Origin: Zootoca vivipara
Taxonomy: Eukaryota
DNA length: 64,000 nt
Assembly (NCBI RefSeq): GCF_963506605.1
Contig: NC_083281.1
Coordinates: 75,144,001-75,208,000 of the forward strand
Direction of reading: 5' to 3'
Of this stretch, positions 2,870 through 64,000 are shown piece after piece (the first letter of the stretch is position 1; the number at the start of each line of letters is the position of its first letter). The notes under the pieces were generated by a model. It had not been told where the DNA came from. It made no database searches and was given only the letters and a program-made list of their open reading frames with translations. Position numbers and translations under genes: made by a program.

Positions 2870-5800
2870 CTGGCAAGGAAAGGACATGGATGTCACTGCT
2901 TCAGCTGGGCAGAAGAGTATGCTGGACATTCACTTTGGGGGCAGGTAGCCACTCATGCTCAGCCTGGCTTTCCTTCTCACAGTATAATGGGGAGTGGGTG
3001 AAGTTGAGGCAACTCCAAGTTGGCATCAGAAGAAAAGGGGCGACACTGTTTATATCCAGACTGGGGAACTGGATCTGACTGGTTGGCAGCAATTGGGCCC
3101 ACGGACTGGAGGTTCCTCACATCTGGCCTATATCGTAACACACCAGAAAAAACTTTGTGTGTTGGGGGGGGGGAAGAGTTGTGTTAAGAGGCTTTGTCCT
3201 TCCTGATGGGATGACACAGAACAGGGGCCCAGACGAAGGCCTGGGAAGGGGTCAGCTTAACATCTCTAATGGGAAAGGTATCACTGACCTGCACTACCTG
3301 GGCCACCGGAACTTGTGAACTGGCAACCACCACCTTTGGGTGCTCAGCACCACAGTGCTGCTCCAGCTGCTCTTGTCCAGGGAAGACCTCCTCGCAGAGT
3401 GTGCAGAACAAGGAAGGCTCTGAAGGGCTGGTGTGTTTGGTGTCCAGGTGCTGCTGCAGTGCCCCCTGGAGGTGGAAAGAGGCTGAGCAGTGTGGGCAGT
3501 GGAGGGGCTGAGACCCTAAGGGAGAGAGAGAGAGAGACAGCGCAGTTGTGAGTAGGCAGGGAAGTGGGAACCTCCTGGGAGAGAGGCAACAAGGGGCAAA
3601 TTAGGAGGACACTCACCCGAGTGCTGGCTTTTCTCGTGGGCCTGCAGCAAAGCGACCGAAGGGAAGAGTCTCTTGCACTTCTCACACTCATGGAATGTCA
3701 CTTCTAAAGGAAAGCCACGAGACCCTCAGTAGGTAGTTTGTCAAAAAGAGGGTTCAGCTACAAGCCAGATATCCACTGACCTTCACCCAGCCCCATGCTC
3801 AGGAGAAGGGCTCCTCTAATGCATTCTCTTCCATCCAACACAGCCTCACAAAGAGCCAACGGTAAGCCACCCACCTCGGTAGAGTGGATCCCACTCCCCC
3901 ACAACCTGGCCACCAGGCTTCTAACACTTGTCCCCTCAACCCAAAACCACTGCCTAAAAAGTGAAGTGTGAAGGCACCATGCACCCAAACCTCACCAAAT
4001 ATGACAAGCGATGGAGATTTTGTGGAGATCTATCAACAGTTCCTAGGAAGAGAGTGGTGGATTCCATGTACTGTACCTCCACACCCCCAGAGGAAGTCTA
4101 CCTCTGAACACTTGATGCCGGGGGAGGGCAGGGACCACCCTGCTTTTGACTTCGCCAGGAACAATGGTAAAGAAAGACAGGCTGCCGAATGAGCTGGACC
4201 TTGGTCTGATCCCACAAAGCTCACCTAACAGCCAGTGCTGAGATGGAGGCCCTGTGCCAAAGAGGCAAGACCTGTCGGGCACCAAAAGTAGAAGGCTCCA
4301 AGGTGGCACCTTTGCCCTCTGAGTCCTTTACCTGCATGCTCTTCCTTGGTGTGTCTCCTGTGGGCTGCAGTGCTGGAAAAGGTCTTATCGCAGGAGCTGC
4401 ACTGCAGCGAAGAGAACTTGGAGGACCGGTGGTTCTGAGCAGCAAAGATGTCCGGGTGATGAGTCCGATTGTGGTACCACAGCCCTGACAATTGCTGGAG
4501 AGAGCAAAACCATTCTGGTTATCACAACCCACACACAGAGGGGGGTTGGGCTGCAGGTTGAAAGCCTCGACTCTGGGATTCACACTGACCATAGGGATTC
4601 CACCCCCCACCCCACCCCCAAGGTAGACCCCCAATGGCTTCTGTCTCCAAAGGAAACACTGCCACATCAATCCCTTGGCTGTTGATACCCCATATGCCCC
4701 CAATTGCATGTTCTATCTATCCACAAAGGGAGGTCAATGGATGCCCACAGCTGAGCCTGATCTTCAGTGGAGGCAAGTGTTTGGAAGAAGTCCAAGTAAG
4801 CCTTCCCTGGTGCCCCTTCTCTGCCATCCCTGGGTGCAGAGGAGTGACCAAGTCAGAATCTGATTGCCTGTTGTAAACACAGTCTTTGGAACCAATGGGC
4901 TGGTTTTATTTGGTATTTTATCGTTACGAAGTCACCTTTTACTGATTTTTATTGTAAAACGCATCGTTCAAAATATAGCTTTTTATCACGTACAAAAAGA
5001 CAAAGGAGGAAATGCCCATTTTAGAATTCAGCACTTTTAGATTCCCAGAGACCCAGGGGAAGCAATGGAAGGTGTGTCTGTGTGTGCGAGGGGGAGGGGG
5101 AGGTGAGACCTCAGAATGGAAAAGGGAGGGGATGGTTGTCCCGTTGGCCACTGCTTCTGCCCAAGCAGACCCACCTGATAAGCTTTGTTGCAGATCTGGC
5201 AGCTGAAAGGTTTCCCCCCGACGTGGGTGACCACGTGGCGCTCCAGCAGGGACGGCGCACTGAAAACCTTCCCGCAGGTCGGGCATGGGTGGTACTCCCT
5301 GGAGTGGGCTGCATGGATGTGCTTCTGGTGCTCCTGCAGGGTGGGGAAGCTCAACTGGCACTTCTGGCAGTCATAGGGGTCGTCAATGTCTGAGTCCCCG
5401 TGTGGAGGGGAGGGCAGGAAGGTGGGGTGAGGAAACAACGAGTTCACATGCAGAGGGTTCAGGAGGAGCAGAAGGACAAAACAGGAGCTGGTTACAATCA
5501 CACAACTGTTTCCCCTCAGATTATGCTGCCCTACCCTCAGGGGAGACTTTGCTCCCAACCAGGACCACATTCAGTCTTAGCTGGGCATCATGTCGGTGCT
5601 CCTCATGATTCCAACCTTGTTGGCAGAGCCCAAGCCCTTGACCATACCCTGCTGTGTGGGGCTTTTAGGCAGAGACACAGAAGAACAGCCGCCACCAATA
5701 GCAGAGCTCCAGCTCCTGGAAGGACAGTTGGGGTCACCCCACCTCAAGGGCTCAGCACTGCCTCCTTCTCCAAAGCAGCACCACATGCAAGAGTATAAGC

Positions 5801-8800
5801 TTGAGAGCAAGAACTCTCAGATTACTCATCATTATAAAAAAAATCTCTAAATAATAATAATGATGAGCAACTCTTCTAGATCTCTGGCACTGGTCCAGGA
5901 AGGGGATGCCTCCACAATAAGAGGCAGAGCAGGGGGCATCCTGCAACTGCTTCCTTCCAGGGTGTGTTTGCAGCCCTTTTAAGTGCATGAGCAGTAAATG
6001 GCAAAACTTACAAAGCTAGGGAGGGTGGGAAGGTGTTGCTCTCATTATTTGTTGTCATTTATTATTATGAAGCTCAAGGCACTCACTGTGAAAGGTGTGC
6101 AGGTGTATGGAGAGACCGTTGGCTTGGCGGAAGCCTTTCCCACATTCCCGGCAGACGTAGGGTTTGTCACCTGTGTGGGTGCGCACGTGGCGGGACAGCT
6201 CAATGGACTGCGCGAAGACGGCGGCACAATACTGGCAAGCGTACATCTTCCCTGCCAAGAGAGCCAATGCAGTGTGTTGGTATGAGGGCTAATATTATGG
6301 CACTGAGCCTAAGCATGGAAGGGCTGGCATGCTAGAAGGACCATCATCATTCCAGAATACCATTCCAGAATACCCAAGCAGTGCCTGGTCTCGGAGCAGT
6401 GTTAGAACATCAGATATATAAGCTAGGTGCCAAATAGCTCCTTAAACCAAAGTTGCAGTTGCCAAAATGAAATGTCTAGTTGCCACTAATTGATTCTCAG
6501 TTAAATATCCAGCTAGTTCAGATGACAATCTTGAGCCAGGCTAAGAGCTTGGTGACCTTAAAAATGAAAAGTCACTTGACCCAGAGACAACCCACATATA
6601 TACTGTATTCTGACCTGTTTTTCTTAATGGTGACTGCTCCTGCTCAGGCTGTGCAGAAAAAGCATTTGGGTTCCTGAAATTCAATCCATTTGTGCCGATA
6701 AAATATTACTGACAGAATTCTACAGGATGGGGTATGAGTGTGTGAAAACAGTCCAAATCCAATGACCTCCAGTCATGCACCATAGCTGCCAAGTTTTCCC
6801 TTTTCTCGCGAGGAAGCCTATTCAGCATAAGGGAAAATCCCTTTAAAAAAGGGATAACTTGGCAGCTATGGCATGCACCTCCAGATGGTGGAGGTGTCAG
6901 ATGCCATCCTGGCACCCAGGCATCTTCACTTGGTTGGAAGTGTTCAAAAGCCATGTGCAAAATGTGCCTGGCTAATCTCAAACACCGTGTCAGAGTGACA
7001 GGGATCAGCTGGAAAAGACAGCAAGAGGAGCAAAAAAAGGTGGCTGAGGGACAGAGGGCAGCAACCCACTTTGGGGTCTTCAAAGCTGTGATGAGGTCAG
7101 TCTCTTCCCTGCGGCTGGGTAGCCCCCCAAGGGAAGCACTCATACACCCCAACTTTCAGTACCCAGCAGCTTGGGCCCCTGTGAAGTTTGGCTTCCTCCA
7201 CACAGCGGGGCTCAGTGCTGCTTGCCAAGGTGCCTTTCCCTGACTCCCAGCCCTGCTATGCAGCAGCACATCATGGCCCAGCCCCTGCTCTACTGGGGAG
7301 CCTTGGCACATTTCGGCAGTGCGCTGCATGAGGTGCAGCCTCTCGGCATGCAGGGGGAAATGACGTGTGTTGGCAGGGCCCCCGGTTCTTTGCTAGCTTT
7401 CCTGACTCCTGTCAAGTTGCTGCAGTCGGAGGTTGACCTGGAGGGGCGCCTGGCCTCACCTTTGGCGTGCTTCTTCTTGGTATGGTAGGCGAGGGCCGAA
7501 GCCTGGGCAAAGCTCATCGGGCAGTGCTTGCAGGCGAAGGGCTGGTCACCCGTGTGCAGGCGCTGGTGGTTCTTGAGCGTGGAGTTGGCAGCAAACTTGG
7601 CGCCGCACTCTTCGCAGGAAAAGGGCTTCTCGTCAAAGTGCTCCGTTAGTTTGTGGTACTGCATCCCTGAGGGGAGGTGGGGAGGGAGAAGGAAACAGCA
7701 GCAGGTGGGGTGGAAAGCCTTCAGCTCCCCAGCACATCACGTGCAGCCTTTTCAGATCAGCTTCTCGAGGGACACAGAGCTGGTCACCACCGCCTGCTCA
7801 AACTGGGCCTGGGCTGCAGCGGCGGGGATTCATGCTGGGAAAAGTCCCTGCTGTGGGAAGGGCCCTCTCTTAAGCTCTTCCTGGGCATGGTAAAGAAGTG
7901 GCATTCACTCGCACAGCCCAGAGAAAGCCATCTAGACTGCCTCAGCCAGGCTCAGCAGGCATCTGCATCTAGAGCAGGGTTTCTCAAACCTGGGTCATCA
8001 GCTGCTTTCAGACTACAGTTCCCATCATTCCTGGCCACTGGTCCAGTTAGCTAGGGATGATGTGAGTTGGGAGTCCAAAAACAACTGGGGACCCAAGTTT
8101 GAGGAACCCCAATCTAGAGGATGACTGGACCTCTGCGGTTTCACTTCTGAATGCAGAGGGGGCCTGACTGTAAATGAAGAGATAAAAGTGAAGCCTGCAG
8201 CTCCTAGCAGCCCTGTGGCTGGCCATACCTGATGTGTGTGCAAACTCCCGCCCACAAATGTCGCAGGCCACAGGGAGGCGGGGCTTCTTGGGCTTCTTCT
8301 TCCGGAGGGAGGTGCCTGGCTTGCCGTGAGCCTCCGCCTGGTGCTTCTCCAGCTCTGCCTTGGAGGCCTTCGCCTCGCCACACTCTGGGCACTGCGCTGG
8401 CTTCTGGTGGGCCACCCGGCAGCGCTTCTCGTGCACCTTCAGGCGGCAGTAGAAGCGAAAGCTCTTCCCACAGGCCTTGCAGGCAAAGCTCTTTGGAGAG
8501 GCGGCCCCCTTGGGGGCCTCTGGGCTTCGTCCCCCTTTTGGCTCCGCTTTGCCCACCGCTTCAACCTGAGACATGCTGTTCACCTTCCATTTCCAGACAC
8601 TGGCCTTCCCTCCATCGACAGCTGTCAAGAGCCCTGTGGAAAAACAAAAGGAAACAGTCGCTCTGAGGCATGTGGACCGTGGGTTCAGGGCCATCAGCAG
8701 GAGCCAAAAATATCTGTAGAACAATATGCTGAGCACAGCTTCCAGAGAACCTTTGTAAGGGTCAAGTTTCTAGCTCCTAGCTTACTAGAAGTTTCTAGCG

Positions 8801-11800
8801 TCTAGCTTACTAGTTTCTAGTAAGTGCTTCCAAGCATCAGGACAGCTCCAGAGGAATTCCCAGGAGTGGTCAGCAGTAGCAACTGCTGCAGTTTCTTATC
8901 TACCCCCTTGCCAAGCAAAACTTACACCAACCGTGTAGAACAATAAGAATTCTGAAGCGCACTTGAACGGGTGCAACATATGCAGGTCACATAGCTTTAA
9001 TCTTTGTAGCACCTGAGGCAAAAATCTTGTACCACTTCTCTAAAGCTACTTGGAAAGTGCAAGATAGGCTGGGCAATGAGGATCAACTACCTCAAGGTCA
9101 GGCGGCTTGAAAGGAAGGAGAAATCCCAAAGCAGGATCTGCAAGGACCTGCGCGGGACACCACTCTTCCCATGCACTGCACAGCTCAGCAACAATAGAAA
9201 TGGGTTTTTGCTACAAGGGTCTATTTGCATTGTTTTACTTTTATTTCGGTGTATCTGCTTTTTTAATTTTTTTTTCCAAAAAACATTTTCCTGTTTTTCC
9301 TGTACATTGTCTTCAGACGATTGTGTAGAAGTTGATTGATAATAATACTTAAGAACCTGAAAATCTATTCTACCTTTAATTAAGCATGTTTCTAGGCCTT
9401 AAGTGTGCAAGGGAGGGGGTTGTGTCTGGTGGAATCTCTCTTAATAATAACAATATAATAATAATTTATTATTTACGGTATACCCCACCCATCTGGCTGA
9501 GTTTCCCCAGCCACTCTGGGCGGCTCCCAGCAGAATATTAAAAACACGATAAAACATCAAACTTAAAAAACTTCCCTAAACAGGGCCACCATCAGGGGAC
9601 TAAGCAGGGTTTTCAGGGTTAGAGAATGCTTCCAAGGACTGCACCACACTCTCCTCCCCCCCATGGCAGGCAGGAGTAGAAGGAACCAGGCAAAATCAGC
9701 TGCCATGTTAAAGTGTCTTCCACACTTTCCTCTGGCTGCTCCTCCCCTACTGGACCCTTGTACAACAACCAGGCCCCTCATGCAACAACCCAAGACCGTA
9801 GGCCTTTGAGTGCTACCTCTACTCTGCTATGAAAGCATTATTCTGCTTCCTTTTGCTCCAGCATCTCAGCAGACCCTTGAAATAAGCTGGGAGTGGCTCT
9901 GGGCAGCATTCACCCTCCGGGCTGTGGATTCCTGAACTGATCCACAGGGGGAGTCTCTTTGCAGTGAGCTGCTCCCCCCACTCTCCCTTTGCCTCAAGTT
10001 CTGCCAAACTGACCCCAAAACAAGACACCTCTCAAGCATGCACACAGATGTGTATGTTGCCAACTGCAGGCTGGGGCTGGGCGTGTCCCCCCACCATGTG
10101 CCTAGAGAGTGGCATATACAAGGCAGAGAGATTCTCACCAGCTTGCTGTAGTTCCTCCATCACTGTCTGCAGACCTGGGAAGGACTCCTGAATGCTGCAG
10201 AGGAGCTGGCAGATCTGGGTGGCAGGAAGAGGCTTGTTGTTTCGGGCACTGCTCAGAGCTGCCCTCCAGGAGGTCGCAGGGGCCACCTCCTGCAGGCAAG
10301 TGCTCACCAGCTGGGAAAAGCCACAGAAGAAACACACAATGAAGAGAGTTCCTCTACCCTGCTGCATGGCAGGATTATTTGACCTCTCCACTGGGTGCCT
10401 GAGCAGGTGCAGATGCTCCCCATGTGTAGCACGGGGGACTAGATCAACCTAGAAGGTCCAGAGAGTTCAGCCACACGCCTCTGGGAGCTGCCGAGCAGGG
10501 ACATAAAAGACAGCAACCCTGTGCTGTCGAACCCCAGTCATTTATTGACTCCTAAACATGCCCTGACAGTCTATAGGTCAAGGGATGGTTTTCATGTGTA
10601 CTGAGTAAGTAAGTAAATAACTAAATAGAAACGCAACATAGAAGCTCTGTTGAGCTACTGTGGTGGAGGGCTGTTGATGATCAACTTCTTCCCTGAATGT
10701 GTCCATTTGTATCTTGTGGCAGTGAATCACATAAGCTAATAATGCATTTGATGAAGAAGCAGCAGCACCACCTTCCTGGTCATTGGGGTGGTGGTGGTGA
10801 TGTTGCAATGGGGTTACGACCAAGTGGTGAAGCACACATTCACCTGCCATTGGTTGTCTGAATCCACCCAGCAGACATCCTGCTACAGACTTAGCACACC
10901 CGAGATATACACACCTGGCACCCAGGGACAGCATCCTGAACCTCCTTGGCTGGTTTCGCCAGGTCTGCTTCTACAGGTGGCAACTCCTCTTCTAGACCAG
11001 CTCCCTGCTGGAGAGCCTCGGAAATCAGCTTGCGATGCCTCAGTAGTATTTCTGTGGCAATGCTGTCACTAGAGCCAACTATGGAAATGGGGTGGGGTGG
11101 GGTGTCAAATTACCAATTAGAGGGTTACTGCATAACCTCAGCTTCCCAACAGTCATGCCATTTCCCTCCCTCCCATTATGTGCTCCACGTTGTGAGAAAT
11201 CTTCAAACTATCTCTTGGAGCCTGAATAACCCAGATGGGATGGTTTCAAACCTAGACTAGAGGACATGTAGGAACAGGCCATCCTGAGCAAGCAAGGAGA
11301 CCAGCCGTACACAGAAAGAGTCTGTGTTGTGGGTGAAGACTCTCCTGCATGCCACAAAGACCATCTAAGGCCTCGTTGGACAAGGTGGGGGGGGCACCCC
11401 CTGTGCCATGATGCTGAGTGAGAGCTCGGTTGGGGCCATAGCCTGCAAAGCCTTTTCTGAACACTCACCGCCGTCAAATTGTCACCCCAAGAGTACCTGT
11501 GCTGTCAGAGCCAACTGCTGCAGCCACCCAACGGTCCAGCAGGAGACCCAGGCCAGGGAAAGGAGCTTTCAGGGCCCCGAGAAACTTGGACAGGGCCTCT
11601 GGGCTCAGGATCTTTTCCTCCTTGAACAGATTCTCTGCAGCGTCCCTGGGTGAGCTGCCCTCAGAGCAGTCCATGGCAGCCTGCAAGGGCAATTACACAG
11701 CTAAGCAGGAGATTCTGAGAAATGTAGCCAATGCACATGCAATACTCCCCCACCCCCATACACACTTTGATGCAGTTTGCAGTAGCTGAAATTTTGAAAC

Positions 11801-14103
11801 ACATACACTATTTCAAGTATGTTTCAGAAATCTAACCTGGCATGTTTGACAGTGACAGGATCTGTGCATTCCAGGAAATATTTCAGTTGGGCACCAATTC
11901 TGTGCAAAGGCACCACTGGTGCTTAATAGCTATCAAGAGCAATGCAAACTGGGAAAACCTGGCCCTAACTTATATGCTTAATTCATTTATATACCACCTA
12001 TTAGAATATCAACTCTTGCAAGGTATCTTACAAAAGATATATAAATGTAATATATGATAAACATTAAAAAGAGACAAACTGATTTAAAATAACTGACAGA
12101 AGCAGCAGCTAATGCATGAATCCAGCTTAAGACCTTGAGATCATGTAGTTCCAACTCCCTTCTAATGCCCCATACAGGGATCAAACCTGCAACCTTGGTG
12201 TTATCAGCACCATGCTCTAACTAACTGAGCTATCCATCATGAAGTGAACTGGGCAACTCTGCCTTTCTGCTTGACATAGAATTAAGTACTAGGCCAGATT
12301 CCTTGGCAGAAAGGAAGGAGGCATTAATGGGAGAGGGAAGGGTGATGTGGTTAGAAGGGAGTGGCAAAATGGCAGGGGCATGCCCCTGCCTTTCCCTTTG
12401 TCCAGTTTACCTGCTTTTCTGCTCCAGAGAGGAAAGCATCATCCTCTGATGTGTCCAAGAGCCCTTGGATGGGCCTCAGCTGTGTCAAATCCTTTAGAAG
12501 CTCTTCCTTACTTTCCTGGGGCACAGCAGCTGTAGGCTTCACCTCTTCTGAGCTTCCTATGAAGAGAGGAAGCCCAGAAAGTCAAAGGGAGAAAGGCCAG
12601 TAGAAGCAGGATGATAGCAGGGGCCATCGTCTTCCTCTTCTGAAAATTATTCACCAAGCAAGAGAACACTGCATACTATGCACACCAAGCATACATAAAG
12701 GATATATGTGCCCAATTGATCACTGCACTCTGCAGCAGATTTCATCTGGGAGTGCATTCCATGTTGCAATCTACTGAAGACCTCCTTCCAAAATTGCCTT
12801 GTAAGTGCAGATTTTTACGCCAGCCTTTATTCATCTAGAAATTGTATTCCTTTTTTCTTTGTTACTGTCGATGCCTTGTTGCTAAATTGCTTTTGGATGT
12901 TTCATGGGAAGTGAGTCACAAATGAAACAGGCACAAATGAGTGCAAGGAAGCATTCTGGTGGGAATGTTTATGCTAAAAAAACAAAATGTCTTAATTACC
13001 TAATAGGTACTGCTGGAGTAGTTTCTTGGGAAGAGCTTTGCTTCTCCCACCTGGGCTCCTGATTAAGATGGTGCATCTCCCTCCTCTTGTAGACAAGGGG
13101 AAAAGCATGCATGGACACAGGCAGAAGCTCTTGGCTTTTGGCTTGCAACAGGAGCAGCAGCTCACAGCATCAAGTGATGACTTCCATGTGTGAAACAGCC
13201 ATCACAGGGCAAGCACCACAAACAAGGCTGTCTCTGCACAGTTTCAAATGCAAACTTTTCAACTGAGGCAGTTAGTTCACTAATTGACCTCACAGTTGTC
13301 AGACAAGGTACATACATGTATGAATCAGTCCAATGGGTAGAATTACAACAGGAAAAGTTACTCTATAGTTTATTAGGAGCAGGCAATGTCAAGGTGACAC
13401 TCTCACCTGTACCTCCAACCAGGTCTTTCTCCTCTGGCAGTTTGGTGCTCTCCCATTCCTCGCAAATGCTCTGGCCACCTGGACACAGAGGGAGGAGAAC
13501 TTTGGGATCCTGGCTATGAGAATCAGGAAGCTGAGTTTCCTTGTCTGAAGCTTCCTGACATGTGCTCTGTCCTTGCACTCTGGTGGTGTCCACAGAGTCT
13601 GCAGAGCCAGAAGAAACCTGCTCAGGATGCAACATCACTTTGACACTGAGTTTTGCAGCATGAGAACTGTCCAAAGTGGCAACACTTTTACTAGATGCAT
13701 CCTCTGCCTGAACAGAAATGTCCCTCAGCACTTCTTCTTGACTTGGAAAGCTCAGAAAGTCCCCAAGAAGGGATTTGCAACTGACAGCCACATCAAACAT
13801 CTGCAGACTGTCTGCCACAGATATGATGTTGGTGAAATTGTGCTTTCCAGGAGGCAGCTTGCCTGTATATATCATTTCTAGCAGGAGAGCAAATTCATCT
13901 GGGGCCACCACAGAAGCATCAATGGAGACTGTGTCTGTGCCATCCAGCACAGACCTGAACAACACACTGGCTGCTGCCAGCACAAGCTTGTGTGCTCGGA
14001 AATGCATTGTCCCAACCAAGATGCTACAGTCGCAGAACTGCTGTTCCCTGCAGAGTGTATGGAGCTGTTGCAGTAGTTGCTGGCTGTAGTTTGGAAGATC
14101 CAT
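2756..14103 (-). CDS. ZBTB40: Zinc finger and BTB domain-containing protein 40, whole spliced CDS (13 coding exons, 2919 nt, about 972 aa as assembled)
   Basis: N-terminal BTB (MDLPNYSQQLLQQLHTLCREQQFCDC...FRAHKLVLAAAS) and a C2H2 array matching recalled ZBTB40. Exons: 14103-13407, 12556-12411, 11680-11497, 11078-10942, 10310-10139, 8633-8229, 7666-7460, 6251-6087, 5389-5175, 4494-4332, 3703-3617, 3515-3289, 2869-2756. All junctions are GT-AG and phase-compatible. Confidence 0.93.
3289..3515 (-). CDS. ZBTB40: ZBTB40 coding exon 12 (last fingers)
   Basis: GSQPLHCPHC...CTLCEEVF...EHPKV; acceptor follows a (CT)n tract; donor CAG|GTCAGT. Confidence 0.9.
3617..3703 (-). CDS. ZBTB40: ZBTB40 coding exon 11 (C2H2 finger)
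   Basis: EVTFHECEKCKRLF...HEKSQHS; donor GTGAGT. Confidence 0.92.
4332..4494 (-). CDS. ZBTB40: ZBTB40 coding exon 10
   Basis: QLSGLWYHNRTHHPD...CSSCDKTF; donor CAG|GTAAAG. Confidence 0.93.
5175..5389 (-). CDS. ZBTB40: ZBTB40 coding exon 9 (C2H2 fingers)
   Basis: NIDDPYDCQKC...CQICNKAYQ; GT-AG. Confidence 0.93.
6087..6251 (-). CDS. ZBTB40: ZBTB40 coding exon 8 (C2H2 fingers)
   Basis: GKMYACQYC...HTGDKPYVCRECG...HTFH; donor GTGAGT. Confidence 0.95.
7460..7666 (-). CDS. ZBTB40: ZBTB40 coding exon 7 (C2H2 fingers)
   Basis: GMQYHKLTEHFDEKPFSCEECG...HTGDQPF; GT-AG. Confidence 0.95.
7975..8111. mobile_element. Palindromic hAT-Charlie-type MITE in a ZBTB40 intron
   Basis: Long inverted arms; perfect TSD atctagag (NTCTAGAN target). 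Confidence 0.85.
8229..8633 (-). CDS. ZBTB40: ZBTB40 coding exon 6 (first zinc fingers, FACKACGKSFRFYCRLKVH)
   Basis: ccacag acceptor, CAG|GTATGG donor. Confidence 0.93.
10139..10310 (-). CDS. ZBTB40: ZBTB40 coding exon 5 (LVSTC...ICQLLCSIQESFPGLQTVMEEL)
   Basis: ttttcccag acceptor, CTG|GTGAGA donor. Confidence 0.88.
10942..11078 (-). CDS. ZBTB40: ZBTB40 coding exon 4 (VGSSDSIATEILLRHRKLISEALQQ...AKE); absent from the ORF track
   Basis: ttccatag acceptor; donor GAG|GTTCAG (alternative in-phase donor at 10915); resembles recalled human ETILRHNQLILEAIQQ. Confidence 0.8.
11497..11680 (-). CDS. ZBTB40: ZBTB40 coding exon 3 (AAMDCSEG...FPGLGLLL...DST)
   Basis: ttgcag acceptor, ACAG|GTACTC donor, phase 0 to 1. 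Confidence 0.85.
12411..12556 (-). CDS. ZBTB40: ZBTB40 coding exon 2 (GSSEEVKP...TQLRPIQ...GAEKQ)
   Basis: catag acceptor, CAG|GTAAAC donor; TQLRPI motif shared with recalled mammalian ZBTB40. Confidence 0.88.
13407..14103 (-). CDS. ZBTB40: ZBTB40 coding exon 1 (BTB/POZ domain)
   Basis: ATG at 14103; upstream acceptor cag gives exon start 14159; donor ACAG|GTGAGA, phase 1. Confidence 0.95.
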
Positions 14104-14694
14104 AGCTCCCTGGAAGTCTCTGCTCCCTTCACGTTCTGTATAGTTTTGCTCCCAATCAGCTGTACGCAGATGAGAAGAGCAGCAAATTAGTTGCATTGAC
14201 TGCACTTGTTCCCTTCCCCAAACTATCATTGTGATCAAACCTGTGGCATTGCCACTAACAAAGGTGAACAGCTTTAGGACACTACTGCTTTCTACCTGTA
14301 ACACCCAACTAGACTTTGAGTAAGAAAGTATTTCCTCCAAACAGGGTAACTAGACTTTGAGTAAGAAAGTATTTCCTCCAAACAAGGTAATACTATTTAG
14401 AGACCTCTGCTCTGCTCTCTAGTTCTGCCTGCTGTGTCACACTTGCCTTCCTTACAATCCTTCCTCAAAACCTACATTTTCTGGCTCAACCTCCTGGTTT
14501 CCATTCCTTACTGCAAACCTCAAGGAAGCCTAGGAGCGTATCTTAAGTGAATACAAATTGCTTTTGTTCAGACTGTAAGCTCCTTGGGGCAGGGACCTGC
14601 CCTCTCGCACTCTGCAGAGCCTGGTTTTCGGAGGTTCAAAAAGCAGTGTAACAGCATTTGAAAGCAGCCTTTGCAAGCAGCCCAGTACTGCTCC

Positions 14695-18761: not shown

Positions 18762-21700
18762 GTCAGTTGTTGCTTAGAACAGGGCCACGGATAACCATTA
18801 TTTTTAATTTTATGTATTCAGTATTTTTTCAATGTCTGTTCTGCTTCTCAACTGAAAAGTATCTGGAGCAACTGCAACAGCCTTTAAATGTTAAATGTAT
18901 ATAAGGTAAAGCCTGTTATGAACATCATAAACTAAAAGTATATTGGATCCAAAAACTACAAATGCCAAACGAAGGGAGGAAATCCCAAAAGGCGAGAAAG
19001 GAGTGGTGTGTGTGTGTGTGTGTTTACACAATTATTGTGTTATGGGTTGTAGTCAATGAATTCCTACGCAAAGTAGACCCATGCAAAGATGTTGAGTGAA
19101 GGACAGGCTCTTACCAATGTTTAATTCCCTCCTCCACCCAGGGAGCGAAAAAAGTCACCCTAGACCAGGATTTGAAAACTATCCTTATGGAAGCGCCTGG
19201 GAAGTGTGTCCCTTATGCAGTAATAGAAGGTAGGCTTTGGGAGTCTTGTGGGTTGCTGGTAATGGGTGTGGGTGTGGGTGGGAAGCATGTATGAGTATTT
19301 GCCATTAGGTGTCTAGTTTGCTCCATCTGTCAGGGAGGATTGTGGTATAAAGTGCACACTAAAATGCAACTGGCTTCATCCCATGGACTGCAAGAAGATC
19401 AAACCTATCCATTCTTAAGGAAATCAGCCCTGAGTGCTCACTGGAAAGACAGATCGTGAAGCTGAGGCTCCAATACTTTGGCCACCTCATGAGAAGAGAA
19501 GAATCCTTGGAATAGACCCTGATGTTGGGAAAGATTGAGGGCACTAGGAGAAGGGGACGACAGAGGATGAGATGGTTGGACAGTGTTCTCGAAGCTACGA
19601 ACATGAGTTTGACCAAACTGCGGGAGGCAGTGCAAGACAGGAATGCCTGGCGTGCTCTGGTCCATGGGGTCACGAAGAGTCGGACATGACTAAACGACTA
19701 AACAACAACAAAATGCAACTCTCATCAGCCCCAACCAGTGATCATGGCTCTCCCTGTACTGCATAATCCTTCGACCTGTGGGTAATTTAATGGGTTCCTA
19801 TTGCTCTTGCTGTTCTGTTACACTGTGGTGAGTCTTCAGGTGTGCAATTAAGCTCTTTTCAGCTGTTCTTTTCTCCCTCCGCCATCCAATAGGTGTCGTG
19901 CGGTCTATTAAGGAAACCCTCAACAGTCAGTTTGTGGAAAACTGCAAGGGAGTGGTTCAGAGGCTAACACTGCAGGAGCACAAGATAGTGTGGAACCGAA
20001 CTACGCACCTCTGGTAGGTACATTTCACTCCCAGACTTGAAAATGGGGCAAGTGGGTTGTTGCTTCCACTGATTTATTGGTGTGAGGCAAGAGCCTTTAT
20101 TGGAGTATGTGGCTTAATTAGTAGGGTAGGCCAGGTGCCATTCAGATTATTATAATCCACCTTTCAATCTCTATCAGGGTGGAGTCTGCATGCAGTCCTA
20201 TATACTCCTCTGGCTTCCCAGGCTATATCCCCTCTGTCCCCCCGTGAGTGCTTTTGCCTGGCTGGAATGTGCTCCTGTGAGAATGCCTCTAGCTTGCCAA
20301 GATGGAGAGTTGTGTATATATAAAAAAATCTGGCTTCTGTGCCAGAAAAGCAGCCCCCATGTTAAAAAAGATCCCCCCAGGTTTTTTCAAAGTATTCATC
20401 CAGCACCTAGGAAGTTTAATCAAAATCTGCTGTGGCACCTTAAAGACGAATATATTTGTTATGGCATAAGTGTTTGTGGACAAAAGTCCATTTTGGTATA
20501 GCGTGAAGGATCATTCTCAATGGGCAGATATGGGATGGGGAGATAGAGATGTAAAGAGTGAGGTGACGTGTCAATGAAAAGCAAACAAAAGATGAAAACA
20601 AAACAGTTTGTGACAATTGCATTGCAGTTGGGAACAGGAGCAGGGAACCATTTGGACCAGTGGTGGGTAGAGCCAGAGGCAAAGGTGGCAATAAAGAAAA
20701 TCAAGTTTTACCTTGTATAGCAGGCTAGATAGTACACACACTCTGTCCTCCATTGAGAGAAGGAAGAAACCTTATCAGAGTTCAAGAATGTATTCCAACC
20801 AGGCAAGAACGCTGAGGGAAGAGTGCAGCTTTGGAAGATGTATGGCTTGATGAGAGGCCTGAGGGCCATAGACCTACCCTGTCCCTGATCTGAATAGTTG
20901 TGATACGGAAGGGGAGGGAAGAGTAGCGCAAGCAAATTCCGGCAGACTCAAGCAAATTCTTCATTAGGTTTCTGTAGACCGAAATGTTAGGACCCGTTCC
21001 TGGGCAAACCTTTATGTGTGCAGCAGGTGGGCCCAGCTAAGTGGGCAATCCGTTTTGTGTTTCTGCTGCTGCTTTAAACCTTTTTGCTGGGTCCTCTTTC
21101 CCCAGGAGCGACTACGAGAAGATCATTCACCAGAGGACCAACACGACAGCCTTTGATATGGTGCCCCAGGAGGGAGGAGCCGATGTCGCCGTGAGGGTGT
21201 TGAAACCCCTGGACGCTGCCGAGCTCAGCTTGGAGACAGTGTACGAGAAGTTCCACCCGTCCGTCCAGTCCTTCACGGATGTGATCGGCCACTACATCAG
21301 CGGGGAGCGCCCCAAAGGCATCAAGGAGACCGAAGAGATGCTGAAGGTGGGGGCGGCGCTTACCGGGGTGGGTGAGTTGGTCCTGGACAACAACACCATC
21401 AGGCTGCAGCCCCCCAAGCAGGGGATGCGCTATTACCTAAGCAGCCTAGATTTCGAGGCCTTGCTCCAGAAGGAAGAATCGAGCGTCCGTCTCTGGAAGG
21501 TCCTGACTCTCCTTTTCGGCTTTGCCACGTGCGCCGTGCTCTTCTTCGTCCTGCACAAGCAGTACCGCCATCACCGGGAGAAGCAGCGCCTGCGTCAGGT
21601 GCAGGAGATGATCGCAGCGGGTGGGGACACACTGAATGCATGCGTCGTCTGCTTGAGCAACGCCCGCTCGTGTGTGTTCCTTGAGTGTGGGCACGTCTGC

Positions 21701-21796
21701 TCGTGCGACAAGTGCTACCAGGCGCTGCCGCAGCCTCCCCGTTGCCCCATTTGTAGGCAAGAGATCGCAAGAGTCGTGCCTTTGTACAACAGCTGA
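18642..21796 (+). CDS. MUL1: Mitochondrial E3 ubiquitin/SUMO ligase MUL1 (MAPL/MULAN), whole spliced CDS, 339 aa
   Basis: Exons 18642-18761, 19142-19229, 19893-20013, 21106-21796 (120+88+121+691 = 1020 nt); TM1, GIDE domain, TM2 and C-terminal RING CVVC...CGHVCSC...CPIC...PLYNS*. Confidence 0.97.
19142..19229 (+). CDS. MUL1: MUL1 coding exon 2 (GAKKV...APGKCVPYAVIE)
   Basis: GT-AG, 88 nt. Confidence 0.95.
19379..19709 (+). mobile_element. Bov-B LINE 3' fragment in a MUL1 intron
   Basis: RTE C-terminal coding remnant plus (caa)n tail; TSD aaaatgcaact at 19361 and 19710. Confidence 0.92.
19893..20013 (+). CDS. MUL1: MUL1 coding exon 3 (VVRSIKETLNSQFVENCKG...WNRTTHLW)
   Basis: GT-AG, 121 nt. 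Confidence 0.95.
21106..21796 (+). CDS. MUL1: MUL1 coding exon 4 (GIDE C-terminal part, TM2, RING)
   Basis: ttccccag acceptor; lies within ORF 21041-21796. Confidence 0.97.
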
Positions 21797-35559: not shown

Positions 35560-37027
<1,468 letters not shown>

Positions 37028-37342
37028 TAGGTGTGCTTACTCGAGAGTAAGCCTCACCATGTTCCATAGGAGCAACCCCCCCCCCATTTCCTCGATGTGC
37101 TGGGAGCACAGCAGTGAGGAACGACAGAGCAGCTGCTTTGCATGCAGAAGGTCCAGGGTTCATTCTTTCCCCCCTTCTCCCATATCTCTAGGTAGGGCTG
37201 AGAATGTACCCTGTCCAAAAGCCTGCCAGTCAGTGTAGGTAACACTAAGCTAGATAGACCAACGACGTGACTTTCAGTGCTTCTGTTAAAACCGGCCCCT
37301 TGATTAGAACCACAAGGATGGGCATCTTTGCTTTGTTTTTAG

Positions 37343-59687: not shown

Positions 59688-60420
59688 CAGGGCCGGCACG
59701 TCCATTAAGGCAAACTAGGCAGTTGCCTAGGGCGCCAAAATGGAGGGGGCGCTGACCAGCCTGCCCCCAAGTGGGGGAGCTGTGCAGCTTCACCCAGCAG
59801 GGGTGTGGAAGGGTCGCCCAAGGCTGGGCACGCGCCCTCTGCCAGTCCTGCGCAGTGGCAGGAAAGGGCTGGAGGGCGCCCGCCGGGGATCGCGCCCGCC
59901 TCCTGGGCGGGATGCGCACACCAGAGAGGGAGGGAGGGAGGGGCGGAGGGAGGCTGATCGCTGTGCACCCTGCTCGCTGCCGCCAATTGCCTCCTCCTGC
60001 CTCCGAGCCTCGTCGGGGATGGCTCTGCTGCTGCGCCTGCCCGCTGCTTACCCGGCTTTCCCCAAACTTATCCAGCTCTGCCCCGCTTGCCGCATCCTGT
60101 CAAGGCGAGGGAAAGGATGCCCGGCGGTGCCTTGTCCCAGGCCAGCCCCGCCGCTGAGTGAGGGAAGTGAGAGCCTGTGAGAGCTGAGCAGGATTGATCC
60201 TCAGACCTTCCGCAGGCCAACTAAGCTACGGACCTCCTTCCAGGAGAGGCAGGGCTTCAGCCCATGAAGGGCTTCCCCCAGCCAGCCAGCTGGTCTACCT
60301 GCTGCGGGAGAGCCTGTCTGCAGCCTTTGATTTCCCCCCTCATTTGAAATATGATTGGCCGGGTGGGGGCGCCAGAAGGTGATCTCGCCTAGGGTGCAAA
60401 AAACCCTAGCACCGGCCCTG
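59688..60420. mobile_element. GC-rich non-autonomous hAT element nested in a palindromic MITE
   Basis: TIRs CAGGGCCGG / CCGGCCCTG; perfect TSD attgtagt. Confidence 0.9.
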
Positions 60421-61864
60421 ATTGTAGTGCAAAACACCTGTAAGGCACCAGGTTGGAGAAGGCTGCTCTACACTAACAGAATCTAAGACAGGAATCTTTT
60501 CCAACCCCACCAGAAGATGCTAGGAATATAGAACCTAGGATACTCTGACTGCTTAGAGCCTGCTCTAAGCTCCTCCTCCCTGTTTGCACATAGGACAGGA
60601 AAAGGAAATTAATATTTGCCCCGGCCAGTAAAATGACTTGACCTGGCCCTGTCTGCATTTCCTCCATTATTCTTTAGTATCCCTAACTCCCAGAATAGAA
60701 CAGTGAAAAACTTTCCAGTTCCAGAAGCATTAGATGTAAGTCATGGGAATGTTACGCAAGGTTTGATGGTGCCTTGTAAACAGTCATTAAAGTGATTGAA
60801 AAGCCTGGGCGGATGTCTATGGAAAGTTAAAAAAAGATAACAGATGAATTCTAATAATGATGACAATAATTGCAGTGTGGAAGACCTTCCATAAATTCTA
60901 GAAGCATTGCAATGGGGGAATGGCATACTGCAGAGCGATTGCGGGTTAAAAGGACCATCAAAGATATACCACATGGAGGAATTAGGGGTGGTGAAGCAGT
61001 GACCTTTCGGATGTTGTTGGGCTGTAGCTCCCGCAAGCCCAAATAACATGGCCAAAAGTCCAGAAGCATATGGAGGGCTACAGATTAGTCACTCTTGCCT
61101 CAAAGACTGCACTGCACATGAATAATACAGATTGCATGCAACAAAGTTGCCCCATTTGTGCAAAGAGTTCTGTTTGTGCCGTGGGACTTCTTCTCCCTCT
61201 CCTCTCCCACGGATTTGCTCCGGAGGGCTGGCGGGAAAGCCCAGAACAGATTTCGGGGCATACAGGAGGAAGGGAAGTTCTGTTGTGCCAGTGGAAATCT
61301 ATCATTGGGCATGCTGCAGTATCCCGCCGCTGCAGTTTCTGAATCAACAGCAAGGAAAGCCCCACGTAGAGTGGCTTGCAGTAGTCCAGTCTTGAAGTTA
61401 CCAATGCCCCCCCTTTTTTAAAAAAGAAGCTCATAACCAGGGGGTTTGGAGGCTATGACTGGGCTTCATCTTTCCACATCTATCCTTTCACAACCAGGTT
61501 CCCCCCCCACCCCAAATTCCAAATGATTGGTCTGATAGTGATTAGTTCTGGGCCCTTCACCAATGCAGCCCTCCAAAGAAGATAAGGCAGTTGTCAAAAA
61601 GAGGAAGAAACAGCTTCTATTTATGCATAAATATCTTGATCAATGGTGAGAGCAGCAGCAGAAATATGTGACTGTTAAGAGGATTTGGGGGAAAACATTC
61701 TGGAACACACCACATTGCACCAGCAAAGTGGCTATCCCTGTGCAGAAAAAGACCTCATGGAGAAGGAAAGACCTCCAGAAGGCATTGAAAATTGGGGAGA
61801 ATAACAGGGATAGTTAGAGCAGGCAGGGTTCTCCTTGTTATGAAGGCTCTCCTCCTGGAGACAG

Positions 61865-62566
61865 AGCCTGCAATAAACCCAGATGCCAACTTTGCTGCCA
61901 CATACACCCGGACAACATCATTACTGGCCCCAACAACATCCAACATACCATCTCAGGACTATTTAATTGCTCATCTTCTAACATTGTGTATGCCATCAAA
62001 TGCCAACAGTGCCCTTCAGCGCTCTATATTGGACAAGCAGGCCAAACCCTACGCCAAAGGATAAATGGACATAAATCTGACATCAGGAACCACAAGACAG
62101 AGAAACCAGTAGGAGAACACTTCAATCTCCCAGGACATTCTATACAAGATCTCAAAGCAGCTGTTTTATTACAGAAAAAATTCAGGAACAGACTGGAAAG
62201 AGAAGTTTCTGAATTGGAACTCATTACCAAGCTTAAAACCATGGAGCCACCTGGGATGAATAAAGACATTGGATTCTTATCTCATTATGCATGATCAAGC
62301 TTTCTTTAGCGCCTCAGCCCTTGTTTTTTCCTCCCAGGACCAATTGCAGTCATCAGCAGTCGTTAACAGCCATCTACAGGTTTACCACTCCCATCAGCCC
62401 ATCACCCATTCCCATCACCCCCACCCCCCACCCTCTGAATATACATAAGGGTCTGGTGGATTCTGTTTCAGTGTATCTGAGGAAGTGTGCATGCACACGA
62501 AAGCTCATACCAAAATAAAAACTTAGTTCGTCTTTAAGGTGCTACTGAAGGAATTTTTTTATTTTG
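61865..62566 (+). mobile_element. 5'-truncated Penelope-like retroelement (Neptune-type Cys linker plus GIY-YIG endonuclease and 3' end)
   Basis: Open frame 61863-62294: CNKPRCQLC...VYAIKCQQC...YIGQ...LRQRINGH...GMN; direct repeat ctcctggagacag at 61852-61864 and 62567-62579. Confidence 0.92.
62473..62510 (+). ncRNA. Minimal type I hammerhead ribozyme motif in the Penelope 3' end
   Basis: GTAT-CTGAGGA-A-GTGTG-CATG-CACAC-GAAA-GCTC-ATAC: both conserved boxes, stem I, stem II and palindromic AGCT stem III. Confidence 0.8.
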
Positions 62567-62640
62567 CTCCTGGAGACAGGCAGAGAAAACTGGCAGGGAT
62601 CATAGAAACGAAATGAAAATTTCCCAAAGGGTGCTATACA

Positions 62641-62974
62641 CAATGGCATTGTGTGGAGGGACTCGGGGTAGTTGCCCTGGGTGCAAAATTGTTAATGGGT
62701 GCAAAATGTCAACACCCGGTGCTGCTAGAATACAACCGCCCACACACTTCTGTCGCTGGACTTTGTTGAAAACGGCTTCTCCATGCAAACCAGGAAGTGG
62801 CCTCTCCAGATAATGGAACGACTCTTCTTTTCTTGTCTCTGTGGCTGCAATCTCCTGGGTGATGCAGAGACCATTAGGCAGTTGAATACGCAGTGCATAC
62901 CCTATCCGTTTCCCTAGCTCCCACCCACCTCCTCTGCGCAGCCCCAGGTGTTGGCAACCAACAGTACGCCACTG
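62641..62974. mobile_element. Degenerate hAT MITE
   Basis: caatggcatt / gtacgccactg ends; TSD gctataca / gttataca. Confidence 0.6.
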
Positions 62975-63277
62975 GTTATACACAGAAAAGAAAAGAAAGG
63001 GTCATAACTTAGTAGGCAAGCACCTGTTTTGCATGCCAAAGGTCTCCTGCTCAACCCCTGGCATCTCCAAGATGGACTGAGGAAGGCTGCCAGTCAGTGC
63101 AGCAGACCACGCTAGAAGGATCATTGGTCTGACTCAATGTACGGCAGCTTCCAATGGTTCATTTCAGAGACAGTAACGCCTCTGAATGCCAGCTGCTGGG
63201 AATTGCAGGAAGGGCAAGTGCTCTTGTGCTTGGGCCCTGCTTGAGGGTTTCCCACAGGCGTTTGGTTGGCCACTGTG

Positions 63278-63664
63278 CAAGGGCGTACCCACCATTCGGC
63301 AAGTTAGGGCAGCTGCCCTACTCTAGAAGCAGGGCTGGTGGGCAGAGGCGGAGCACAGCCCGGCGGAGCGCGAGTTCGCCATTCCCGCCGCACCGCGCCA
63401 CACCCTCCCTCCAGCTCCCCGGCGCGCCCTCAGGCAAGGCCAAGCGCGGCGGGGAACCAGGGAGCGCGGCGCGGCGGGCGGGAACGCTGAACTCGCGCTC
63501 CGCTGGGCTGGGCTCCGCCTCCGCCCACCAGCCCTGCTTCTAGGGAGGGGCACAGCCCGGCGGAGCGCGAGTTCGCTGTTCCCGCCCACTTTGTGGCCCC
63601 TCCCCTTCCGTGCCTTGGCCCCTCCCCTTGCCCCCCCCTAGTTTTGATCCTGGGTACGCCCATG
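63278..63664. mobile_element. GC-rich hAT MITE with an internal inverted repeat, inserted in a CR1-type tail
   Basis: TIRs CAAGGGCGTACCCA / TGGGTACGCCCATG; perfect TSD ccactgtg. Confidence 0.88.
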
Positions 63665-64000
63665 CCACTGTGAGAACAGGATGCTGGAGTAGCTGGGCCA
63701 TTGCCCTGATCCTGCAAGGCTCTCCTTTTGTTCTTAGGTATTCCAGGAGGCTTGACAGAAGTGGCAAATCATGCTGGCTTGGACATTTCCCCTTCTGGTC
63801 CCTGCATTCAGTGAACACATTTATGAAGAGCGTGAACCATTCCTCCTAATAACTTGGGAGTTCTCCAAAGGAATCAGCCTGATTTACACTCCTGTGGTCA
63901 CACACGTTCCCTCGGTATCCATTTTCTTCAAATCTCACTCTGTGTGCAGCTGGGCGGCATTAATTTCCACTTTGTTTCAAATGTCGGCTGAATGACTCTC

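What the first reader, a model, noticed from the sequence alone, without database searches (positions are those of the whole stretch)
61852..62579. Young Penelope-like copy with an open GIY-YIG frame and an intact minimal hammerhead ribozyme
Seen: 143 uninterrupted codons (Cys-rich linker plus GIY-YIG with R, E and N motifs), a 13-bp flanking direct repeat, and at 62473-62510 GUAU CUGAGGA A GUGUG-CAUG-CACAC GAAA GC UC|AUAC. Known: Penelope-like elements carry minimal type I hammerheads whose palindromic stem III favours cleavage as dimers. Inference: predicted cleavage after C62506; this monomer would need a partner RNA, making it a possible trans-activated self-cleaving module. The class is known, but the motif is invisible to ORF-based annotation.
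Basis: partly seen in the sequence, partly recalled or inferred. Interest (0 to 1): 0.7.

Follow-up and report, generated by a model that had tools for sequence, protein, structure and literature searches.

The report
Truncated lizard Penelope copy with hammerhead
This is the broken-off end of a very common jumping gene, likely of a lizard, carrying a known kind of small self-cutting RNA motif found about 19,000 times in this genome; this lone copy is predicted to be misfolded and is likely silent, so it is ordinary.

Summary
It is a 5'-truncated copy of a Neptune-type Penelope-like retrotransposon. The 34-nt ribozyme motif occurs exactly 19,097 times in this genome (control 0). Full-length copies carry a 901-aa RT-endonuclease frame between two hammerheads 3,030 nt apart, so the natural partner lies in cis. 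This copy has no start codon before the nuclease core, no second hammerhead in the window and no detected host exon nearby. Its rare G at N7 (125 of 19,097) is predicted to lock the catalytic core. Across subfamilies the motif is invariant except N7 while the neighbouring UTR drifts to 67-79%, so it is selected in active elements. Copy ends do not pile up at the cut site, nor do RNA read ends. The class was described in 2014, and this scan noted it on other lizard DNA seven times. Ordinary; a trans-activated module is unsupported.

The parts
61852..61864 (+). Left target-site duplication (13 bp); its last 3 bases (CAG) also match the element's upstream sequence (5' microhomology)
61865..62566 (+). 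5'-truncated copy of a Neptune-type Penelope-like retrotransposon (last 702 bp of a 3,030-bp unit, ending at the T tract without the ~36-nt tail)
61863..62294 (+). Open frame of 143 codons plus stop: C-terminal end of the element's single ORF; the only in-frame Met lies after the nuclease core, so no product is expected
61869..61895 (+). Cys-rich linker C-x4-C-x2-C (fits the CX2-5CxxC motif of the Neptune and Nematis clades)
61986..62261 (+). GIY-YIG endonuclease domain (VYAI..YIG, CxxC..H..H, R65, E116, N132); private Thr-to-Ala change at 62037 in a nearly invariant position
62295..62566 (+). 3' UTR / pseudo-LTR region
62440..62472 (+). TATA-like box (62440-49) and initiator-like TCAGT (62468-72), read by eye: possible pLTR promoter with start at A62470; unproven
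   Evidence: weak support
62473..62510 (+). Minimal type I hammerhead motif; predicted scissile bond 62506/62507; N7 = G62481 is private to this copy among its 30 closest
62567..62579 (+). Right target-site duplication (13 bp); first 2 bases (CT) also match the element's continuation

Best explanation
This is a 5'-truncated insertion of an abundant Neptune-type Penelope-like retrotransposon, likely dead on arrival, whose real minimal hammerhead is likely silent here. How it arose (inferred): the RT-endonuclease of a full-length partial-tandem element nicked both strands 13 bp apart and primed reverse transcription inside the element RNA at the T tract 60 nt past the hammerhead cut site. It copied through an uncut (or re-ligated) hammerhead and 143 codons, then stopped and joined on a 3-nt microhomology. 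What the ribozyme does (inferred): in active elements it works slowly, as a pair with the second copy 3,030 nt away in the same transcript, likely helped by the element's protein, to cut or circularise unit-length RNA; it does not set the 5' end of most insertions. In this copy it is a passenger that has begun to decay.
For: Shown: perfect 13-bp duplication at the homology boundaries. 3,967 first-look candidates, best 40 at 95-100%; 19,097 exact 34-mers, control 0. The 30 closest copies end 5' at scattered points. 8 frames of 925 codons between two hammerheads 3,030 nt apart in 7 of 20 fetched regions, with RVT_1 and GIY-YIG. Two 3' end classes, 16 at the T tract and 12 with a ~36-nt tail, 2 shorter, of 30, as described for Anolis PAc (PMC11167929). 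Singleton coding changes 18 synonymous: 51 non-synonymous against a site ratio of 3.7, near neutral, whereas window vs youngest subfamily is 19: 11. Hammerhead 37 of 38 identical between subfamilies whose upstream UTR is 67-79% alike. 0 of 25 distinct long-copy 5' ends at the cut, 7 read through it. Predicted: G5-C17 lock probability 0.92-0.99 in short contexts vs 0.00-0.37 for 7 relatives. Literature: a lone min-HHR showed no cleavage and dimers low activity (PMC4209133); the PAc HHR needs the protein and is dispensable for insertion in vitro (PMC11167929).
Against: No cleavage assay was run; folding is nearest-neighbour prediction, and in a 334-nt context the lock falls to 0.30 (relatives 0.00-0.29), so the N7 effect depends on context. 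Breaks at the cut site (75) outnumber those at -4 (46) and +3 (14), and 3 of 30 viewed are clean duplication-flanked starts exactly at the cut: a minority of cleaved templates is possible. I did not lay RNA on this locus, so its silence is not shown; it keeps a promoter-like stretch. Exons without a Pfam hit, or non-coding genes, would escape.
Confidence: 0.88

Rival explanations
1. One reading: the lone hammerhead is a trans-activated self-cleaving module that cuts a host or read-out transcript when a second hammerhead RNA pairs through the AGCU palindrome.
For: All core nucleotides are present. Hammerhead-bearing RNA of the family is abundant in three RNA runs of the same species label, on both strands, mostly embedded in other sequence (81-88% of laid reads run on unlike in two runs, 46% in the third), so partners exist. 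A TATA-like and initiator-like stretch lies just upstream (by eye).
Against: Predicted core lock from private N7=G. Two free copies are predicted to pair through the 14-bp stem II palindrome (-28 kcal/mol for that duplex alone), not to form the catalytic dimer. No read-end pile at the cut. No Pfam exon in the 135 frames tested across 46-64 kb and the next 10 kb except one retroelement protease. Published min-HHRs are barely active even as cis dimers (PMC4209133; review PMC6765202).
Confidence: 0.05
2. The hammerhead of this family is no longer catalytic in any copy; the invariant ~90-nt block is kept as the protein-binding, promoter and RT-start platform, and the ribozyme fold is a structural relic.
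For: The 50 nt after the motif are as conserved (96-98%) as the motif. All 19,097 counted motifs span the cut site intact. No 5'-end peak at the cut in long copies. PAc catalytic mutants still insert in vitro (PMC11167929). A review of hammerhead-less clades notes HHRs may simply parasitise PLEs (PMC8557442, passage).
Against: The only subfamily-level variation inside the motif is at N7, the one free core position. An older family keeps the catalytic core with different, complementary stems. PAc and other PLE hammerheads do cleave in vitro (PMC11167929, PMC4209133).
Confidence: 0.15
3. The copy has been co-opted by the host (exonised nuclease frame or regulatory element).
For: Open 143-codon frame; annotated gene models in a lacertid and in turtles include such domains; the insertion junction is present in contigs of three samples.
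Against: An open frame is the norm (19 of 30); 1 of its 2 private coding changes alters a nearly invariant Thr; no ATG; no host exon detected nearby.
Confidence: 0.03

Closest known systems
Minimal type I hammerheads (min-HHR) in pLTRs of metazoan Penelope-like elements (Cervera and De la Pena 2014, PMC4209133; parts 1-2 of 4 of the text read)
   Same: Short helix I (4 bp), bulged base between 9 and 10.1, G10.1-C11.1, palindromic 15.2-16.2, mostly single motifs in truncated copies, some in opposite-strand pairs; reported in turtle and snakes.
   Different: Helix II here is 5 bp and itself a perfect 14-nt palindrome; 19,097 exact copies exceeds the 4,000-9,000 reported for coelacanth and Xenopus; the motif is highly uniform, like D. 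virilis. No lacertid is named in the parts read; its supplements were not opened.
Neptune clade of EN+ Penelope-like elements (Craig et al. 2021, PMC8557442; passages read)
   Same: Single ORF RT then GIY-YIG, CX2-5CxxC linker, CCHH motif, partial tandems forming pLTRs, inverted 5'-truncated copies, 30-40-bp tail.
   Different: This copy has a clean 13-bp duplication and no microsatellite target. Neptune vs Nematis was not resolved by a tree.
PAc, Poseidon of Anolis carolinensis (Frangieh et al. 2024, PMC11167929; main text parts 1-2 of 4 read)
   Same: Lizard PLE with a pLTR hammerhead, two 3' ends that define a tail, no RNA read ends at the cut site.
   Different: Poseidon lacks the Cys linker; in PAc the ORF starts inside the hammerhead, here the first ATG lies 104 nt after the cut.
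Animal non-LTR retrozymes (Li, Clavereau and Pollet 2026, 10.64898/2026.07.22.740005; part 1 and passages read)
   Same: Tandem hammerhead arrays derived from pLTRs; one 4 x 598-nt array of this family exists in the genome (L051).
   Different: The window copy is a single coding-end fragment, not a tandem non-coding unit.

Membership tests
EN+ Penelope-like elements | Single ORF with RT followed by a C-terminal GIY-YIG endonuclease | tested here: met
   901-aa ORF of L095: RVT_1 46.9 bits, GIY-YIG 23.8 bits; window frame differs from its last 142 codons at 30 codons, 11 amino acids
EN+ Penelope-like elements | Partial-tandem arrangement forming pLTRs, often with an inverted truncated copy at the 5' end | tested here: met
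   7 of 20 regions with two same-strand hammerheads 3,030 nt apart around an intact frame; inverted partners in most. The window copy itself is a monomer.
EN+ Penelope-like elements | Optional 30-40-bp 3' tail | tested here: met
   12 of 30 closest copies carry a ~36-nt tail, 16 end at the T tract like the window copy, 2 end earlier
EN+ Penelope-like elements | RT groups with telomerase/PLE RTs in a phylogeny | not tested
   No tree built; no named reference PLE proteins were fetched
Neptune clade | CX2-5CxxC linker before the endonuclease, and CCHH motif | tested here: met
   C2-x4-C7-x2-C10; C46, C49, H69, H85 invariant in 17 aligned proteins; definition from PMC8557442
Neptune clade | Placement with Neptune rather than Nematis references | not tested
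   The linker is shared by both; nearest named relatives are lacertid (90-93%) and turtle (64-68%) gene models; Neptune and Poseidon are the vertebrate clades in the 2026 survey
Minimal type I hammerhead (min-HHR) | Core CUGANGA, GAAA, UH with helices I and II | tested here: met
Minimal type I hammerhead (min-HHR) | Bulged base after A9, G10.1-C11.1 pair, palindromic 15.1-16.1 | tested here: met
   A62484; G62485-C62498; AGCU 62502-62505
Minimal type I hammerhead (min-HHR) | Covariation in helices I and II | tested here: inconclusive
   None within the family: 88 distinct copies, stems invariant but for CpG-type decay. An older family of 17 copies has different stems that pair (helix II 54 of 85 cells vs 18-32 when slid), but it was selected partly on those columns and its link to a PLE ORF was not found
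Minimal type I hammerhead (min-HHR) | Self-cleavage at the predicted bond as a dimer | not testable with these tools
   Indirect only: no read-end pile, no dominant copy-end peak
Non-LTR retrozyme | Tandem non-coding units each with a hammerhead | tested here: not met
   Only one family copy in the 64-kb window

The most novel reading that the evidence does not exclude
The roughly 19,000 identical hammerheads, many read inside host RNAs, act as a genome-wide pool of trans partners: when the element's protein is made it chaperones pairs of them and cuts host transcripts, a transposon-gated RNA decay network of which this copy is one node.
Probability: 0.04. Interest if true: 0.7.

Novelty: new member of a known kind. 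Interest (0 to 1): 0.12.

Why it matters
This copy matters little. The family is a convenient test system: a recently active vertebrate Penelope-like element with several intact 901-aa copies, two cis hammerheads 3,030 nt apart, and a ribozyme block frozen across subfamilies. It could be used to settle whether PLE hammerheads cut in vivo and whether the template is a circle. The copy-end data here already argue that cleavage does not define most 5' ends.

Tried and rejected
Rfam scan: no hammerhead family hit in 60000-64000 at E<=10; a limit of the models, not evidence against the motif. Metagenome scan for distant relatives to test covariation: 106 pattern matches, 0 confirmed. Empty-site allele: no joint skipping the insertion among the 15 joints shown of 20; contigs X1 and X2 cross the left junction by only 26 nt and X4 the right by 26 nt, short of the tool's 31-nt bridging rule, so presence in three samples is a hint only. 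No RNA holder was listed for the locus: no evidence either way. Cleavage-defined 5' ends: 0 of 25 long copies; pattern counts 75 at the cut, 46 at -4, 14 at +3, 200 at C3, 279 at -7/-8 (patterns differ in how many bases and subfamilies they admit, so only roughly comparable); of 30 cut-site loci viewed most were fold-back or slippage junctions. Sharp transcription-start peak at the base matching A62470: not shown; 22 of 30 loci viewed were fold-back junctions, 3 had a duplication close to that base. Energy of the catalytic dimer could not be evaluated (pseudoknotted). The bacterial promoter scan is irrelevant here. Lunse et al. on dimer cleavage was not available; I rely on the review passage in PMC6765202. 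Paper searches for a lacertid description found none, in this library only; repeat databases such as Repbase or Dfam could not be searched and supplements were not read, so the family may already be named.

Full report
Observation. A 13-bp direct repeat lies at 61852-61864 and 62567-62579, exactly where homology to other copies begins and ends. The frame 61863-62291 is open for 143 codons and matches Pfam GIY-YIG above its cut-off. The hammerhead at 62473-62510 has the full core, a bulged A after A9, a G10.1-C11.1 pair and an AGCU palindrome in place of stem III. My descriptor finds it once in the window and never in 100 shuffled windows. Rfam does not see it.

What it is. The own-genome search gave 3,967 first-look candidates; the 40 scored are 95-100% identical. 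The 34-nt motif with N7 free occurs 9,480 + 9,617 = 19,097 times, control 0. The 30 closest copies reach 0-591 bp further upstream and stop at scattered points. Walking upstream led to whole elements: in 20 fetched regions, 7 hold a 925-codon frame (8 frames) between two same-strand hammerheads 3,030 nt apart. The protein from the first ATG is 901 aa with RVT_1 and GIY-YIG domains. The C-x4-C-x2-C linker and CCHH residues fit the Neptune and Nematis clades as defined in PMC8557442 (passages); I built no tree. The nearest named proteins are from a lacertid lizard (90-93%) and turtles (64-68%), so the host is likely a lacertid.

Age and decay. Against the majority of its 30 closest copies the window copy has 9 substitutions and 1 indel; 5 are private. 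Two matter: a Thr-to-Ala change right after the YIG motif, at a nearly invariant position, and C-to-G at hammerhead N7. An open frame is usual: 19 of 30 read to the same stop, 3 more are open with small changes, 8 are broken. Singleton coding changes are near neutral (18 synonymous, 51 non-synonymous, site ratio 3.7), while the window differs from the youngest subfamily at 19 synonymous and 11 non-synonymous codons. Selection acts on master elements, not on copies. The youngest subfamily is 99.4-100% uniform over whole units, so this copy is recent but not of the latest wave. The frame has no Met before the nuclease core.

The ribozyme at family level. Between subfamilies the UTR before the motif is 67-79% identical, the motif 37 of 38, and the next 50 nt 96-98%. 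In 88 distinct copies not chosen on the motif, the only common variation is A or C at N7; the rest is CpG-type decay. This is what a selected hammerhead should show, but the equal conservation downstream means other functions overlap it. There is no covariation inside the family because the stems do not vary. An older family of 17 copies keeps the core with other stems that still pair: helix II 54 of 85 cells against 18-32 when slid, helix I inner pairs 10, 12 and 9 of 17. The search pattern fixed part of helix II, and no PLE frame was found within 1.5 kb of these, so this is supporting, not decisive.

Does it cut? Every counted motif spans the cut site, and the window copy runs 60 nt beyond it, so the RNA copied was uncut or re-ligated there (inference). 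Of 25 distinct 5' ends of long copies none lies at the cut; 7 read through it and the nearest stops 57 nt downstream. Genome-wide break counts were 75 at the cut, 46 at -4, 14 at +3, 200 at C3 and 279 at -7/-8. Of 30 cut-site loci viewed, 3 are clean duplication-flanked starts and most others are fold-back or slippage junctions. A small share of cleaved templates is therefore possible but it is not the rule. Three RNA runs (about 6 in 100 of each read, one study) laid on one unit show deep cover of the motif on both strands, thin cover of the RT region, and no pile of ends at the cut; these libraries are not made to catch such ends. The same was reported for Anolis PAc, whose hammerhead cleaves only with the protein and is not needed for insertion in vitro (PMC11167929). 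A lone min-HHR gave no cleavage and dimers little (PMC4209133; review passage PMC6765202).

This copy. G at N7 occurs in 125 of 19,097 motifs. It extends a helix UGAG/CUCA that pairs G5, A6, U16.1 and C17: predicted probability 0.99 in the 38-mer, 3.5 kcal/mol below the stem I + II fold, 0.92-0.98 with up to 40 nt upstream, against 0.00-0.37 for 7 relatives; with 150-nt flanks 0.30 against 0.00-0.29. Stem I is predicted weak in context for all copies. Two free copies are predicted to pair through the 14-bp stem II palindrome rather than stem III. There is no second family copy in the window. Genes found lie far upstream: a BTB zinc-finger gene (minus, 5-14 kb), a GIDE-RING ligase (plus, 21-22 kb) and a CaMKII inhibitor exon (plus, 36-37 kb). 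I scanned 135 of 301 listed frames (74 of 181 in 46-64 kb, 61 of 120 in the next 10 kb; the longest six window frames were covered or lie in repeats) and found no host exon. The copy keeps a TATA-like and an initiator-like stretch 30 nt apart (by eye; motif names recalled), so read-out transcription is possible and was not tested.

Mechanism, shown vs inferred. Shown: boundaries, duplication, family structure, copy number, tandem masters, conservation pattern, two 3' end classes. Inferred: target-primed reverse transcription from an internal start at the T tract; pairing of the two cis hammerheads in tandem transcripts; protein help; silence of this copy.

Comparison and novelty. It works like, and meets the testable features of, an EN+ Penelope-like element with a min-HHR; activity and clade placement by tree were not tested. 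The class is in print since 2014. Two searches found no paper on this lacertid family in the library held; repeat databases and supplements were not seen. The scan's own notes hold seven findings with all my search words on other genomes, and one more lacking a word, none near this place; they are unchecked and were not counted as support. One (e1-9525010) named a capped RNA start just before the motif, which I tested with an inconclusive result.

Verdict. Observation confirmed, interpretation partly supported, new member of a known kind, interest 0.12.

Noticed in passing
L171-L190 (G000, 20 places; 17 of one type): A second, older and decayed minimal-hammerhead family with different helix I and II sequences and an AAGCUU core; no PLE frame found within 1.5 kb.
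   Followed up: partly
L051:820-3242 (G000:C1, about 2.777-2.780 Mb): Tandem array of four 598-nt units, each with an intact hammerhead: retrozyme-like, and a natural cis-dimer substrate.
   Followed up: partly
L093, L095, L097, L100, L101, L103, L108: Intact 925-codon Penelope-like frames between two hammerheads 3,030 nt apart, 99.5-100% alike: the family was active very recently.
   Followed up: partly
L141-L170; window 62440-62472: Fold-back junctions often restart 7 nt before C3 and RNA loose ends gather there; a TATA-like box lies 30 nt upstream. Possible transcription start just before the ribozyme, or only microhomology with the start of stem II.
   Followed up: partly
L124, L125, L128: Three short insertions flanked by 10-13-bp duplications begin exactly at the predicted cut site: possible copies of cleaved RNA.
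   Followed up: partly
window 62485-62498: Stem II with its loop is a perfect 14-nt palindrome in all copies, predicted to dominate pairing between two RNAs.
   Followed up: partly
window 5037-14349 (-), 21041-21796 (+), 36407-37030 (+): Host genes: BTB zinc-finger exons, a GIDE plus RING E3 ligase exon (MUL1-like, name recalled) and a CaMKII inhibitor exon.
   Followed up: no
L065:8554-9999 (+): Open frame of at least 482 codons with a weak gag-type aspartyl protease hit, likely an LTR retroelement about 10 kb downstream of the finding.
   Followed up: no
window 59690-60420 and 63284-63668: Two GC-rich elements with terminal inverted repeats by eye (the second with 76-nt inverted arms), likely non-autonomous DNA transposons.
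   Followed up: no
clusters 1-6: Lacertid and turtle gene models, some named after host genes (TANGO2, GRAMD2A isoforms), contain this element's domains: likely annotation carry-over or exonisation.
   Followed up: no
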